Assembly: GCF_009914755.1 (NCBI RefSeq)
Contig: NC_060926.1
DNA: 64,000 nucleotides
Strand: one strand, 5' to 3'
Origin: the human T2T-CHM13v2.0 reference genome, Homo sapiens
Positions within the stretch are counted from its first letter, which is position 1; each line of letters opens with the position of its first letter. The position numbers were made by a program, and so were the translations under genes. The notes beneath the pieces are model-generated. The model was not told where the DNA came from. It worked only from the letters and a program-made list of their open reading frames with translations, and made no database searches. Shown in pieces: positions 41,916 through 49,289 of this stretch.

Positions 41916-43448
41916 TATATGTCTGATATAAAAAGTTGTGGATCCAGAATGTATAAAATCTTTCAAAACTCAGTAATAAGCAAACCAACAACCCATGTAA
42001 AAGTCAGAAAACTATTTTAATAGACCCTTAGTTAAAGAAGACACATGGTGGGCAAATATACATCTAATAAGGTTTTCAACATCATTAGCCATTAGGAAAA
42101 TACAGATTAAAACCATAATGAGATACCATTACGTGCTCACTAGAATGGCTAAGATAAAAAAAACTCACTGTTCCTAGTGTTAGAACTCTCACACACTGCT
42201 GGTGGAACTATAAAATGAATATCCACTTTGGAAAAACCATTTGGCAGGTTTTATTTATTTTTTATTTTTAAAGTTAAACCTATCCCTACTGTGTGACCCA
42301 GCCATTCCCTTCCTGGGTATTTTCCCAAGAGAAAATAAAGCATATATCCAAACAAAGACTTGTATATGAATGTGCATAGCAGCTTTTTTTTTTTTTTATG
42401 TTTTAATTATTTTAATGGTACTTTTTCCCTGCATTTTGAACAAGGAGAATCCCATTTTCATTTTGCACTGGGCTCTGCAAATTATATAGCCAGAGAAAAT
42501 GCCCTTTGTTTTTTGGCTACATGGCTGCAGCTGCTATTTGGTTAATCTGCCCCTTATATTTGTAGGCTACTCAAGTTTTCTTTTCTCAAAAAGCAATCCA
42601 ATAAACCAATTTTGTATTTCTGCTAGAATATTTTCCAACTTCCTCCAGAGGTGAAGTGATGTTTGAAGCTAGGTCAGGTGCTTTTTTCCTTTTAACCCAG
42701 GTTTGCCCCATTTGAGTTAGCTTATGGAAATCCTTTTTACAGACCAATTAATTAGGTTAATAGAATAAGCTTTTTACTCAGCTGGATCTGAATGTGAATT
42801 CTGACTCCACTCTCTATTTGCAATGTCATCTTGAGCAAGTTACCTATCCTCCTTAAATCTGTTTGCCAAGCTCTACCCTCAGAGACTCTGAGGCAGTCTG
42901 ACTTTATAATCAATTGACTAAGTGCTTATATGTAGATAGTATGCATACTGCTACTTGGGATTTCCTGGATAGGATAATTTTTAATTTGCCTTTTTATCCT
43001 TTGAGTTCATGATTCTATGAAGTACACAAGCTCCTCAGGTCCTTGCTGTGTATATGCCTTAGAATGAGGTATTTTCTGTTTCCTATAAAAAGAGCCAAAT
43101 TCCTCATTAAGATGGGATCCTCAACAGCATGGTATGCAGGACAAAGCAAGTCTTTCTTAATCTGATCCAAATATCAGACAAAATGTGATATTATTATAAG
43201 GTTATAGATTTTCTTTTTTTTTTTTTTTTAATTTTTTTTTTTTATTATACTCTAAGTTTTAGGGTACATGTGCACATTGTGCAGGTTAGTTACATATGTA
43301 TACATGTGCCATGCTGGTGCGCTGCACCCACTAACTCATCATCTAGCCTTAGGTATATCTCCCAATGCTATCCCTCCCCCCTCCCCCGACCCCACCACAG
43401 TCCCCAGAGTGTGATATTCCCCTTCCTGTGTCCATGTGATCTCATTGT

Positions 43449-46400
43449 TCAATTCCCACCTATGAGTGAGAATATGCGGTGTTTGGTTTTTTGTTCTTGC
43501 GATAGTTTACTGAGAATGATGGTTTCCAATTTCATCCATGTCCCTACAAAGGACATGAACTCATCATTTTTTATGGCTGCATAGTATTCCATGGTGTATA
43601 TGTGCCACATTTTCTTAATCCAGTCTATCATTGTTGGACATTTGGGTTGGTTCCAAGTCTTTGCTATTGTGAATAGTGCCTCAATAAACATACGTGTGCA
43701 TGTGTCTTTATAGCAGCATGATTTATAGTCCTTTGGGTATATACCCAGTAATGGGATGGCTGGGTCAAATGGTATTTCTAGTTCTAGATCCCTGAGGAAT
43801 CGCCACACTGACTTCCACAATGGTTGAACTAGTTTACAGTCCCACCAACAGTGTGAAAGTGTTCCTATTTCTCCACATCCTCTCCAGCACCTGTTGTTTC
43901 CTGACTTTTTAATGATTGCCATTCTAACTGGTGTGAGATGATATCTCATAGTGGTTTTGATTTGCATTTCTCTGATGGCCAGTGATGATGAGCATTTCTT
44001 CATGTGTTTTTTGGCTGCATAAATGTCTTCTTTTGAGAAGTGTCTGTTCATGTCCTTCGCCCACTTTTTGATGGGGTTGTTTGTTTTTTTCTTGTAAATT
44101 TGTTTGAGTTCATTGTAGATTCTGGATATTAGCCCTTTGTCAGATGAGTAGGTTGCGAAAATTTTCTCCCATGTTGTAGGTTGCCTGTTCACTCTGATGG
44201 TAGTTTCTTTTGCTGTGCAGAAGCTCTTGAGTTTAATTAGATCCCATTTGTCAATTTTGGCTTTTGTTGCCATTGCTTTTGGTGTTTTGGACATGAAGTC
44301 CTTGCCCACGCCTATGTCCTGAATGGTAATGCCTAGGTTTTCTTCTAGGGTTTTTATGGTTTTAGGTCTAACGTTTAAATCTTTAATCCATCTTGAATTG
44401 ATTTTTGTATAAGGTGTAAGGAAGGGATCCAGTTTCAGCTTTCTACATATGGCTAGCCAGTTTTCCCAGCACCATTTATTAAATAGGGAATCCTTTCCCC
44501 ATTGCTTGTTTTTCTCAGGTTTGTCAAAGATCAGATAGTTGTAGATATGCGGCATTATTTCTGAGGGCTCTGTTCTGTTCCATTGATCTATATCTCTGTT
44601 TTGGTACCAGTACCATGCTGTTTTGGTTACTGTAGCCTTGTAGTATAGTTTGAAGTCAGGTAGTGTGATGCCTCCAGCTTTGTTCTTTTGGCTTAGGATT
44701 GACTTGGCGATGCGGGCTCTTTTTTGGTTCCATATGAACTTTAAAGTAGTTTTTTCCAATTCTGTGAAGAAAGTCATTGGTAGCTTGATGGGGATGGCAT
44801 TGAATCTGTAAATTACCTTGGGCAGTATGGCCATTTTCACGATATTGATTCTTCCTACCCACGAGCATGGAATGTTCTTCCATTTGTTTGTGTCCTCTTT
44901 TATTTCCTTGAGCAGTGGTTTGTAGTTCTCCTTGAAGAGGTCCTTCACATCCCTTGTAAGTTGGATTCCTAGGTATTTTATTCTCTTTGAAGCAATTGTG
45001 AATGGGAGTTCACTCATGATTTGGCTCTCTGTTTGTCTGTTGTTGGTGTATAAGAATGCTTGTGATTTTTGTACATTGATTTTGTATCCTGAGACTTTGC
45101 TGAAGTTGCTTATCAGCTTAAGGAGATTTTGGGCTGAGACGATGGGGTTTTCTAGATAAACAATCATGTCGTCTGCAAACAGGGACAATTTGACTTCCTC
45201 TTTTCCTAATTGAATACCCTTTATTTCCTTCTCCTGCCTGATTGCCCTGGCCAGAACTTCCAACACTATGTTGAATAGGAGCGGTGAGAGAGGGCATCCC
45301 TGTCTTGTGCCAGTTTTCAAAGGGAATGCTTCCAGTTTTTGCCCATTCAGTATGATATTGGCTGTGGGTTTGTCATAGATAGCTCTTATTATTTTGAAAT
45401 ACGTCCCATCAATACCTAATTTATTGAGAGTTTTTAGCATGAAGGGTTGTTGAATTTTGTCAAAGGCTTTTTCTGCATCTATTGAGATAATCATGTGGTT
45501 TTTGTCTTTGGCTCTGTTTATATGCTGGATTACATTTATTGATTTGCGTATATTGAACCAGCCTTGCATCCCAGGGATGAAGCCCACTTGATCATGGTGG
45601 ATAAGCTTTTTGATGTGCTGCTGGATTCGGTTTGCCAGTATTTTATTGAGGATTTTTGCATCAATGTTCATCAAGGATATTGGTCTAAAATTCTCTTTTT
45701 TGGTTGTGTCTCTGCCCGGCTTTGGTATCAGAATGATGCTGGCCTCATAAAATGAGTTAGGGAGGATTCCCTCTTTTTCTATTGATTGGAATCGTTTCAG
45801 AAGGAATGGTACCAGTTCCTCCTTGTACCTCTGGTAGAATTCGGCTGTGAATCCATCTGGTCCTGGACTCTTTTTGGTTGGTAAACTATTGATTATTGCC
45901 ACAATTTCAGAGCCTGTTATTGGTCTATTCAGAGATTCAACTTCTTCCTGGTTTAGTCTTGGGAGAGTGTATGTGTCGAGGAATGTATCCATTTCTTCTA
46001 GATTTTCTAGTTTATTTGCGTAGAGGTGTTTGTAGTATTCTCTGATGGTAGTTTGTATTTCTGTGGGATCGGTGGTGATATCCCCTTTATCATTTTTTAT
46101 TGTGTCTATTTGATTCTTCTCTCTTTTTTTCTTTATTAGTCTTGCTAGCGGTCTATCAATTTTGTTGATCCTTTCAAAAAACCAGCTCCTGGATTCATTG
46201 ATTTTTTGAAGGGTTTTTTGTGTCTCTATTTCCTTCAGTTCTGCTCTGATTTTAGTTATTTCTTGCCTTCTGCTAGCTTTTGAATGTGTTTGCTCTTGCT
46301 TTTCTAGTTCTTTTAATTGTGATGTTAGGGTGTCAATTTTGGATCTTTCCTGCTTTCTCTTGTAGGCATTTAGTGCTATAAATTTCCCTCTACACACTGC

Positions 46401-48356: not shown

Positions 48357-49261
48357 CTTTGTGGTTTTATCTACTTTTGGTCTTTGATGATGGTGATGTA
48401 CAGATGGGTTTTCGGTGTAGATGTCCTTTCTGGTTGTTAGTTTTCCTTCTAACAGACAGGACCCTCAGCTGCAGGTCTGTTGGAATACCCTGCTGTGTGA
48501 GGTGTCAGTGTGCCCCTGCTGGGGGGTGCCTCCCAGTTAGGCTGCTTGGGGGTCAGGGGTCAGGGACCCACTTGAGGAGGCAGTCTGCCCGTTCTCAGAT
48601 CTCCAGCTGCGTGCTGGGAGAACCACTGCTCTCTTCAAAGCTGTCAGACAGGGACACTTAAGTCTGCAGAGGTTACTGCTGTCTTTTTGTTTGTCTGTGC
48701 CCTGCCCCCAGAGGTGGAGCCTACAGAGGCAGGCAGGCCTCCTTGAGCTGTGGTGGGCTCCACCCAGTTCGAGCTTCCCAGCTGCTTTGTTTACCTAAGC
48801 AAGCCTGGGCAATGGCGGGCGCCCCTCCCCCAGCCTCGTTGCCACCTTGCAGTTTGATCTCAGACTGCTGTGCTAGCAATCAGCTCGATTCCGTGGGCGT
48901 AGGACCCTCTGAGCCAGGTGTGGGATATAGTCTCGTGGTGCGCCGTTTCTTAAGCCGGTCTGAAAAGCGCAATATTCGGGTGGGAGTGACCCGATTTTCC
49001 AGGTGCGTCCGTCACCCCTTTCTTTGACTCGGAAAGGGAACTCCCTGACCCCTTGCGCTTCCCAGGTGAGGCAATGCCTCGCCCTGCTTCGGCTCGCGCA
49101 CAGTGCGCACACACACTGGCCTGCGCCCACTGTCTGGCACTCCCTAGTGAGATGAACCTGGTACCTCAGATGGAAATGCAGAAATCACCCGTCTTCTGCG
49201 TCGCTCACGCTGGGAGCTGTAGACCGGAGCTGTTCCTATTTGGCCATCTTGGCTCCTCCCC
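48357..49261 (-). promoter_or_regulatory. L1 5' UTR internal sense promoter and antisense promoter; YY1 site retained
   Basis: 905-nt CpG-rich UTR; CAAGATGGC near the 5' terminus. Confidence 0.9.
48812..49027 (+). CDS. LINE-1 antisense ORF0 (71 aa), intact
   Basis: MAGAPPPASLPPCSLISDCC...RCVRHPFL*; ATG at 48812; splice donors at 48918 and 49003. Confidence 0.85.
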   Translation: MAGAPPPASLPPCSLISDCCASNQLDSVGVGPSEPGVGYSLVVRRFLSRSEKRNIRVGVTRFSRCVRHPFL

Positions 49262-49289
49262 GCATAGCAGCTTTATTTGTGATAGCTAT

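What the first reader, a model, noticed from the sequence alone, without database searches (positions are those of the whole stretch)
42374..49274. Full-length young L1 carrying an 816-bp 3' transduction
Seen: no TSD at the L1's own tail (43214-43243). Instead gcatagcagcttt flanks the 5' end (49262-49274) and reappears at 42374-42386 behind a second poly(A). ATTAAA (42416-42411) lies 13 nt before that tail. Removing the insertion and one TSD copy restores the host L1M sequence (atgtgcatagcagctttatttgtgatagc), with a CTTT/AT endonuclease-type site. The passenger 42398-43213 is unrelated genomic DNA with half a MER45A (about 42440-42493) and a MIR remnant (about 42780-42860). Established: read-through of the weak L1 poly(A) signal copies source-locus flank, which tags the parent and siblings.
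Basis: partly seen in the sequence, partly recalled or inferred. Interest (0 to 1): 0.85.

Follow-up and report, generated by a model that had tools for sequence, protein, structure and literature searches.

The report
L1 with X-derived 3' transduction
This is an ordinary but very clean case of a human L1 jumping gene that carried 816 bases of its parent's neighbouring DNA along when it copied itself, and the parent copy can be found on the X chromosome of the same genome.

Summary
A full-length L1 (minus strand, body 43244-49261, both ORFs open) is followed by its own tail (43214-43243), 816 nt of non-L1 DNA (42398-43213), a second poly(A) (42387-42397) and a 13-nt target-site duplication that brackets the whole composite.

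In the same assembly the 816 nt occur only once more, on contig C23 (X, 81,982,012-81,982,827), with 2 mismatches. There they lie directly 3' of a full-length L1. That L1 has its own 16-nt duplication and the same TT-interrupted tail, and the X sequence runs on past the point where the chr2 copy is polyadenylated.

No sibling carries the tag in this genome. The X parent has a 4-bp deletion that cuts ORF2.

A paper's source data list what is, by position, strand and length, the chr2 copy as a GRCh38 L1HS locus with 0% activity in the Brouha 2003 assay.

One oddity: a 13-nt patch in the chr2 3'UTR reads GAG (older type) inside a body that otherwise matches ACG-type copies.

This is a textbook mechanism. 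Interest is low.

The parts
42374..42386 (.). Target-site duplication, copy next to the second poly(A) tail (gcatagcagcttt)
   Evidence: family D9
42387..42397 (-). Second (terminal) poly(A) tail, 11 A. Up to 3 more A are ambiguous with the duplication or with AAA in the X template.
42398..43213 (-). 816-nt transduced passenger, copied from C23 81,982,012-81,982,827
   Evidence: 2 mismatches in 816. Only two copies in the genome.
42411..42416 (-). ATTAAA poly(A) signal 13 nt upstream of the terminal tail. A second ATTAAA lies at 42402-42407.
   Evidence: In the X source a T-rich stretch follows the cleavage point.
42398..42495 (.). Truncated interspersed repeat at the distal end of the passenger. 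In X the same repeat runs on well past the cleavage point (three of the six fetched copies align to at least 260 nt of X sequence from its start).
   Evidence: Family name not tested.
43198..43213 (-). Copy of the X parent's own 16-nt duplication (GAAAATCTATAACCTT), now the first bases of the passenger
43214..43243 (-). The L1's own, now internal, poly(A) tail: A12 TT A16. The parent has A10 TT A12.
43244..49261 (-). Full-length L1 body, 6018 nt. It matches ACG-type (pre-Ta) copies at 28 of 33 sites that separate the two comparison panels.
43449..47276 (-). ORF2, open, 1275 aa. About 13 residues differ from solved human ORF2p chains.
47340..48356 (-). ORF1, open, 338 aa
43336..43348 (-). Patch in the 3'UTR (L1 positions 5914-5926). 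Four sites read as in older GAG-type copies where the X parent and 10 of 10 ACG-type copies read otherwise.
49262..49274 (.). Target-site duplication, copy next to the L1 5' end
41060..42386 (+). Old host L1M fragment (ORF2 3' part) into which the young L1 inserted. It continues for 12 nt at 49275-49286.

Best explanation
A full-length L1 on the X chromosome (C23 81,975,975 to about 81,982,011, + strand) was transcribed from its own promoter.

RNA polymerase II and the cleavage machinery skipped the L1's own AATAAA. They used an ATTAAA site 816 nt downstream, inside a neighbouring interspersed repeat.

The resulting RNA carried the L1, its genomic A10-TT-A12 tail and 816 nt of flank. L1 endonuclease nicked the bottom strand of an old L1M copy on chromosome 2 at CTTT/AT, and the RNA was reverse-transcribed there by target-primed reverse transcription. 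This left a 13-nt target-site duplication around the whole composite.

Shown here:
- the anatomy of the chr2 insertion;
- the unique source locus;
- the source's own duplication;
- the direction of transfer.

Inferred:
- the read-through and target-primed steps themselves, from established L1 biology;
- an insertion date after the human-chimpanzee split;
- the origin of the 13-nt GAG patch by short-tract conversion from an older L1.
For: - **Composite bracketed by an exact duplication.** It is 13 nt and abuts the L1 5' end and the second tail. There is no duplication at the L1's own tail.
- **One other copy of the passenger.** It lies at C23 81,982,012-81,982,827 with 2 mismatches in 816. The L1-proximal 354 nt and the first 27 nt each occur exactly twice in the genome.
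- **L1 directly upstream on X.** The passenger there is directly preceded by a full-length L1 whose 16-nt duplication GAAAATCTATAACCTT flanks only the L1 plus tail.
- **Shared tail structure.** Both tails carry the same TT interruption.
- **X sequence runs on.** X continues as ...ACAT|AAATTTTTTTT..., and the repeat there continues well beyond the cleavage point, where chr2 has poly(A).
- **Signal and target.** ATTAAA lies 13 nt before the tail. The target reads CTTT/AT.
- **Target site.** The target-site sequence is collinear in 14 of 20 L1M paralogues.
- **Body and passenger diverge alike.** The L1 bodies differ at 48 substitutions outside the patch, 18 of them CpG transitions. The non-CpG rate is 0.50%, which predicts 4.1 differences in the passenger against 2 observed, P(<=2) = 0.23.
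- **Shared rare state.** Both copies carry G at L1 position 376, seen in 1 of 10 ACG-type copies.
Against: - By overall identity the X copy is not the nearest relative of the chr2 body. In the 5'UTR search it ranks about 32nd of the 40 copies scored. Ten unrelated ACG-type copies are 98.9-99.2% identical to chr2, against 99.1% for X. This is expected for a star-like young family in which both copies have private changes. It means the parent-offspring link rests on the passenger and the tail, not on the body.
- The subfamily-diagnostic trinucleotide differs between parent (ACG) and offspring (GAG).
- Private non-CpG changes are unequal: 8 in chr2 against 22 in X, p = 0.016. This is unexplained.
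- No empty site from another species or haplotype could be examined.
Confidence: 0.96

Rival explanations
1. The direction is reversed: the chr2 composite is the source and the X copy is the offspring.
For: Only the chr2 copy has both ORFs open today. The X copy has a frameshifted ORF2.
Against: - On X the 16-nt duplication hugs the L1 plus its tail.
- On X the 816 nt continue into further unique and repeat sequence with no poly(A).
- On chr2 the 816 nt end in poly(A) followed by a duplication.
Confidence: 0.01
2. A DNA-level event copied the L1 plus flank from X to chr2 without an RNA intermediate, for example a segmental duplication or repair-mediated template copying.
For: The copied block is contiguous and about 99% identical.
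Against: - The block starts at L1 nucleotide 1, plus one untemplated G.
- It ends in a poly(A) tail that is absent from X, 13 nt after ATTAAA.
- It is flanked by a 13-nt duplication at a CTTT/AT site.
These are the hallmarks of target-primed reverse transcription as listed in PMC7026601 (passages read).
Confidence: 0.01
3. Both copies descend from a third element that is not in CHM13, or the RNA came from a differing allele of the X locus rather than from the CHM13 allele.
For: - X has more private non-CpG changes than chr2, 22 against 8.
- The diagnostic trinucleotide differs between the two copies.
Against: - The X locus has its own tight duplication, so the 816 nt are its native flank. Any transcript carrying them must come from that locus.
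- Only two copies of the tag exist.
- An allelic difference at the time of transcription is possible, but it is a detail of the same explanation.
Confidence: 0.03
4. Two separate events: an L1 insertion, and independently an insertion of the 816-nt piece beside it (for example an orphan transduction).
For: Two poly(A) tracts are present.
Against: - There is no duplication around either piece alone.
- The order L1, TT-interrupted tail, X flank starting with the X duplication is exactly the X arrangement.
Confidence: 0.005

Closest known systems
L1 3' transduction (read-through of the weak L1 poly(A) signal). Moran 1999, Goodier 2000 and Pickeral 2000 are recalled, not read here. The hallmark list was read in passages of PMC7026601.
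   Same: An L1 with an internal tail, passenger DNA, a second tail after a downstream poly(A) signal, a duplication around the composite, an endonuclease-type target, and a passenger that traces to the 3' flank of a progenitor L1.
   Different: Nothing in kind. Here parent and offspring both sit in one finished assembly, so every junction can be read.
Transduction-tagged L1 lineages used to trace active sources: the LRE3, L1RP and AC002980 families and tumour sources such as 22q12.1. The first three are recalled. 22q12.1 and Xp22.2 are named in PMC11871128 and PMC9311842 (passages).
   Same: A unique 3' tag links an offspring to a source locus.
   Different: - This lineage has a single offspring in CHM13.
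- The source has a frameshifted ORF2 in this genome.
- The locus matching the X source by position shows 0.0 mean transduction count in tumours (fig5b source data).
- The offspring scored 0.0 in the Brouha assay as tabulated in fig6c source data.
L1HS pre-Ta subfamily (ACG in the 3'UTR; PMC7026601 passages)
   Same: The X parent carries ACG. The chr2 body agrees with 10 ACG-type copies at 28 of 33 sites that separate them from the GAG-type panel.
   Different: The chr2 copy itself reads GAG at the diagnostic trinucleotide, within a 13-nt patch.

Membership tests
L1 3' transduction by target-primed reverse transcription | The L1 3' end with its own A-rich tail is followed by non-L1 DNA and a second poly(A) tail | tested here: met
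   tail 43214-43243, passenger 42398-43213, second tail 42387-42397
L1 3' transduction by target-primed reverse transcription | A poly(A) signal lies 10-30 nt upstream of the second tail | tested here: met
   ATTAAA ends 13 nt before the tail
L1 3' transduction by target-primed reverse transcription | The target-site duplication brackets the composite, not the L1 alone | tested here: met
   13 nt exact. No match between the 5' flank and the sequence after the internal tail.
L1 3' transduction by target-primed reverse transcription | Endonuclease-type target (a variant of TTTT/AA) | tested here: met
   CTTT/AT on the primed strand. A loose match, as is common.
L1 3' transduction by target-primed reverse transcription | The passenger maps to a unique locus directly 3' of a progenitor L1 | tested here: met
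L1 3' transduction by target-primed reverse transcription | An empty pre-insertion site exists in another haplotype or species | not testable with these tools
   No ape genome or pangenome is held. As a proxy, 14 of 20 L1M paralogues are collinear across the site.
L1HS pre-Ta | ACG at the diagnostic 3'UTR trinucleotide | tested here: not met
   chr2 reads GAG. The X parent reads ACG.
L1HS pre-Ta | The body sequence groups with ACG-type copies | tested here: met
   28 of 33 discriminating sites like the ACG panel, 4 (the patch) like the GAG panel, 1 like neither; 98.9-99.2% identity to 10 ACG copies against 97.8-98.0% to 5 GAG-patch copies.
Retrotransposition-competent L1 | Full length with open ORF1 and ORF2 | tested here: met
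Retrotransposition-competent L1 | Activity in a cultured-cell assay | not testable with these tools
   Fig6c source data of PMC11871128 give brouha_l1rp 0.0 for L1HS chr2:86655238-86661268(-). I matched that locus to this one by position, strand and length only.

The most novel reading that the evidence does not exclude
The 13-nt GAG patch (43336-43348) is a footprint of short-tract ectopic gene conversion from an older L1 into a pre-Ta element after it inserted. It flips the trinucleotide used to classify young L1s and to prime their capture.

With its parent known, this pair would then be a calibrated case for measuring how often conversion disguises young L1s. It could also show why private changes accumulate unequally at the two loci (8 against 22 non-CpG changes).
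Probability: 0.5. Interest if true: 0.3.

Novelty: already known. Interest (0 to 1): 0.18.

Why it matters
It is a clean worked example: offspring, parent, both duplications, the skipped and the used poly(A) sites can all be read in one assembly.

It shows that a now-broken X-linked L1 was once active. It also shows that an intact-looking L1 in an intron of the RNF103-CHMP3 read-through gene is its only tagged descendant in this genome.

Practically:
- The GAG patch means that trinucleotide-based subfamily calls, and probably capture primers that rely on the ACA trinucleotide, would misjudge or miss this element.
- The 816-nt tag can be used to look for siblings in other genomes.

None of this changes what is known about L1 biology.

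Tried and rejected
- **Nearest-neighbour search with the chr2 5'UTR.** 4905 candidates, 40 scored. The X copy ranks about 32nd, and all hits round to 99% identity. This does not settle parentage in a star-like family.
- **Young L1 as reference for the right flank.** Not significant: 288 of 1000 random windows score as high. Replaced by L1M paralogues.
- **Continuation of the host L1M to the right.** The one weak hit, at 57409, belongs to another, older full-length L1 at 51681-57824. The continuation was not found.
- **GAG patch as a marker that the whole chr2 body belongs to an older subfamily.** Rejected: 28 of 33 discriminating sites are of the ACG type, and the flanking sites 5836 and 6010 are of the ACG type.
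- **Papers that may already list this transduction.** Not held: Szak 2003 and Brouha 2003. Goodier 2000 and Pickeral 2000 were not looked up.
- **Full-text searches.**
  - RNF103 + LINE-1 + full-length found nothing.
  - The hg38 coordinates, together with hg19 coordinates I derived using a recalled offset, found nothing.
  - The search for transduction + LINE-1 + source element + Xq21 found only PMC11871128. It names a locus 'Xq21.1-3' that I could not place.
- **Supplements of that paper.** PDF and large xlsx files could not be read.
- **Repeat names MER45A and MIR.** No repeat library is available.
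Full report
**What is in the window**

On the minus strand there is a 6018-nt L1 body (49261 down to 43244).
- It starts GGGGAGGAGCCAAGATGGCC.
- Its ORF1 is open at 338 aa (48356-47340) and its ORF2 at 1275 aa (47276-43449).
- ORF2p differs from solved human ORF2p chains at about 13 of 1275 residues. Eight differences fall in the roughly 970 residues printed against 9hdo_A. Five more fall in residues 971-1275 against 8sxt_A.

The body ends ...CTTAGAGTATAAT and is followed by a 30-nt tail, A12 TT A16 (43243-43214). 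After that come 816 nt of non-L1 DNA (43213-42398), eleven A (42397-42387) and the 13-mer AAAGCTGCTATGC.

The same 13-mer abuts the L1 5' end. On the + strand it reads gcatagcagcttt, at 42374-42386 and 49262-49274 (family D9). The bases after the internal tail (GAAAATCTATAACC) have no counterpart at the 5' flank.

ATTAAA ends 13 nt before the terminal tail, and a second ATTAAA ends 4 nt before it.

Twelve- to 13-nt direct repeats as such are common in this stretch: one search lists 17 families. What matters is that this one sits exactly at both ends of the composite.

**The target site**

The left flank is an old L1M ORF2 fragment on the + strand. Window 42287-42373 aligns without gaps to positions 5488-5574 of the young L1.

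The right flank keeps only about 12 nt of that L1M. Against the young L1 this is not significant. I therefore fetched 20 L1M paralogues.
- In 14 of the 20, both duplication copies map to the same paralogue positions, and the right flank continues in register to 49283-49287.
- In 5 the right-flank alignment ends earlier, at 49275-49280.
- In 1 it aligns elsewhere.

The primed strand reads CTTT/AT at the nick.

**The source**

A search of the window's own assembly with the 816 nt gave the window itself and one other full match, C23 81,982,012-81,982,827. The other 38 hits covered only the first 98 or so nt, an interspersed repeat. C23 is 154,259,566 bases long, and I take it to be X.

The alignment shows 2 mismatches in 816. 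The L1-proximal 354 nt and the first 27 nt at up to 2 mismatches each occur only at these two places. CHM13 therefore holds no sibling with a tag of that length.

On X the 816 nt are preceded by a full-length L1 (+ strand, from 81,975,975) with tail A10 TT A12. GAAAATCTATAACCTT occurs both just before its 5' end and just after its tail. So the 816 nt are the X element's native 3' flank, and the chr2 passenger begins with the X element's own duplication.

On X the sequence runs on as ...AATTAAAACAT|AAATTTTTTTTCCTTC.... The repeat that chr2 truncates after about 96 nt continues on X well past that point (alignments to six fetched copies of the repeat). This fixes the direction as X to chr2 and fixes the cleavage site.

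The offspring has one more 5' G than the parent DNA can template: CCTT|GGGAGG on X against GGGGAGG on chr2.

**Mechanism**

The shown features are those that define an L1 3' transduction by target-primed reverse transcription. I read the hallmark list in passages of PMC7026601.

The steps themselves are inferred from established L1 biology:
- read-through of the L1 AATAAA;
- cleavage after ATTAAA;
- nicking at CTTT/AT;
- priming on the new poly(A).

**The two L1 bodies**

They differ at 52 substitutions and one 4-bp indel. I polarised these with 10 full-length ACG-type copies from chromosome 1 and 5 copies that share chr2's patch.

| | chr2-private | X-private |
|---|---|---|
| CpG transitions | 12 | 6 |
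| Other substitutions | 8 | 22 |
| Patch sites | 4 | 0 |
| Indel | none | 4-bp deletion |

- Both copies share a rare G at position 376 (1 of 10 ACG copies) and C at position 5033 (3 of 10).
- Non-CpG divergence in the body is 0.50%. This predicts 4.1 differences in the passenger, against 2 observed, P(<=2) = 0.23.
- The imbalance of 8 against 22 (p = 0.016) is unexplained.
- Taking human-chimpanzee divergence of about 1.2% (recalled), a pairwise 0.47% over body plus passenger suggests an insertion roughly 2-4 million years ago, which would make it human-specific. This is an inference, not a test.

**The patch**

At L1 positions 5914-5926 (window 43348-43336) chr2 reads AAGGCTAGATGATGAG, where X and 10 of 10 ACG copies read AATGCTAGATGACACG.
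- The exact chr2 20-mer occurs at 15 places in the genome. The ACG 20-mer occurs at 495.
- 33 sites separate the two panels. chr2 is of the ACG type at 28, of the patch type only at the 4 patch sites, and of neither type at 1.
- The nearest flanking discriminating sites, 5836 and 6010, are of the ACG type.
- The panel of patch-bearing copies was chosen for having the patch, so its agreement at those 4 sites is by construction.

A short conversion tract of 13 to 173 nt from an older L1 is the simplest reading. Conversion of the X copy in the other direction is not excluded.

**Coding state and literature**

The X parent keeps ORF1 (338 aa). Its ORF2 is cut to 1074 aa by the 4-bp deletion.

In the source-data archive of PMC11871128:
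- The locus L1HS chr2:86655238-86661268(-) has brouha_l1rp 0.0 and coefficient -0.002 in fig6c (legend passages).
- L1HS chrX:83542396-83548420(+) has 0.0 in fig5b, the mean transduction count.

I equate these with the two elements by strand, length and a constant offset from the T2T coordinates only. The offset is about 2.0 kb for chr2 and 1.566 Mb for X.

I found no printed statement of this X-to-chr2 pair. Szak 2003 and Brouha 2003 are not held, and several supplements were unreadable. These sources are the most likely to list the pair.

**Verdict**

The source is located and the direction is proven. The mechanism is textbook, and both loci appear, by position, in a published GRCh38 L1HS list. 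Low interest, with a small curiosity in the patch.

Noticed in passing
window 43336-43348 (L1 positions 5914-5926): A four-site patch turns the diagnostic ACG of the parent into GAG, in a body that otherwise matches ACG-type copies. The exact 20-mer occurs at 14 other places in the genome.
   Followed up: yes
window 43244-49261 compared with L009 1975-7987: Private non-CpG substitutions are unequal: 8 in chr2 against 22 in X, binomial p = 0.016. CpG transitions go the other way, 12 against 6. No explanation.
   Followed up: partly
window 49258-49261; L009 1971-1977: The offspring starts GGGG where the parent DNA reads CCTT|GGG. This is one untemplated 5' G. Reverse transcription of the cap is a recalled explanation, or X has since lost a G.
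   Followed up: no
L009 about 7148 (C23 81,981,148): A 4-bp deletion in the X parent cuts ORF2 to 1074 aa. ORF1 stays open.
   Followed up: yes
window 51681-57824 (+): A second, older full-length L1. It is 89.6% identical to the young one over positions 778-6018 and 78.5% over the 5'UTR.
   Followed up: partly
window 49286/49287: The host L1M breaks off 12 nt to the right of the young L1's target site. 49287-51680 is not L1, and the L1M continuation was not found.
   Followed up: partly
L002 2221 to about 2640 (C23); window 42398-42495: The poly(A) site used for the transduction lies about 95 nt inside an interspersed repeat that runs on in X. The chr2 copy keeps only that first part.
   Followed up: partly
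window 42374-49274: By the hub's gene table the insertion lies within the span of RNF103-CHMP3 (minus strand) and on the same strand. That makes it a sense-oriented full-length L1 in an intron of that read-through model.
   Followed up: no
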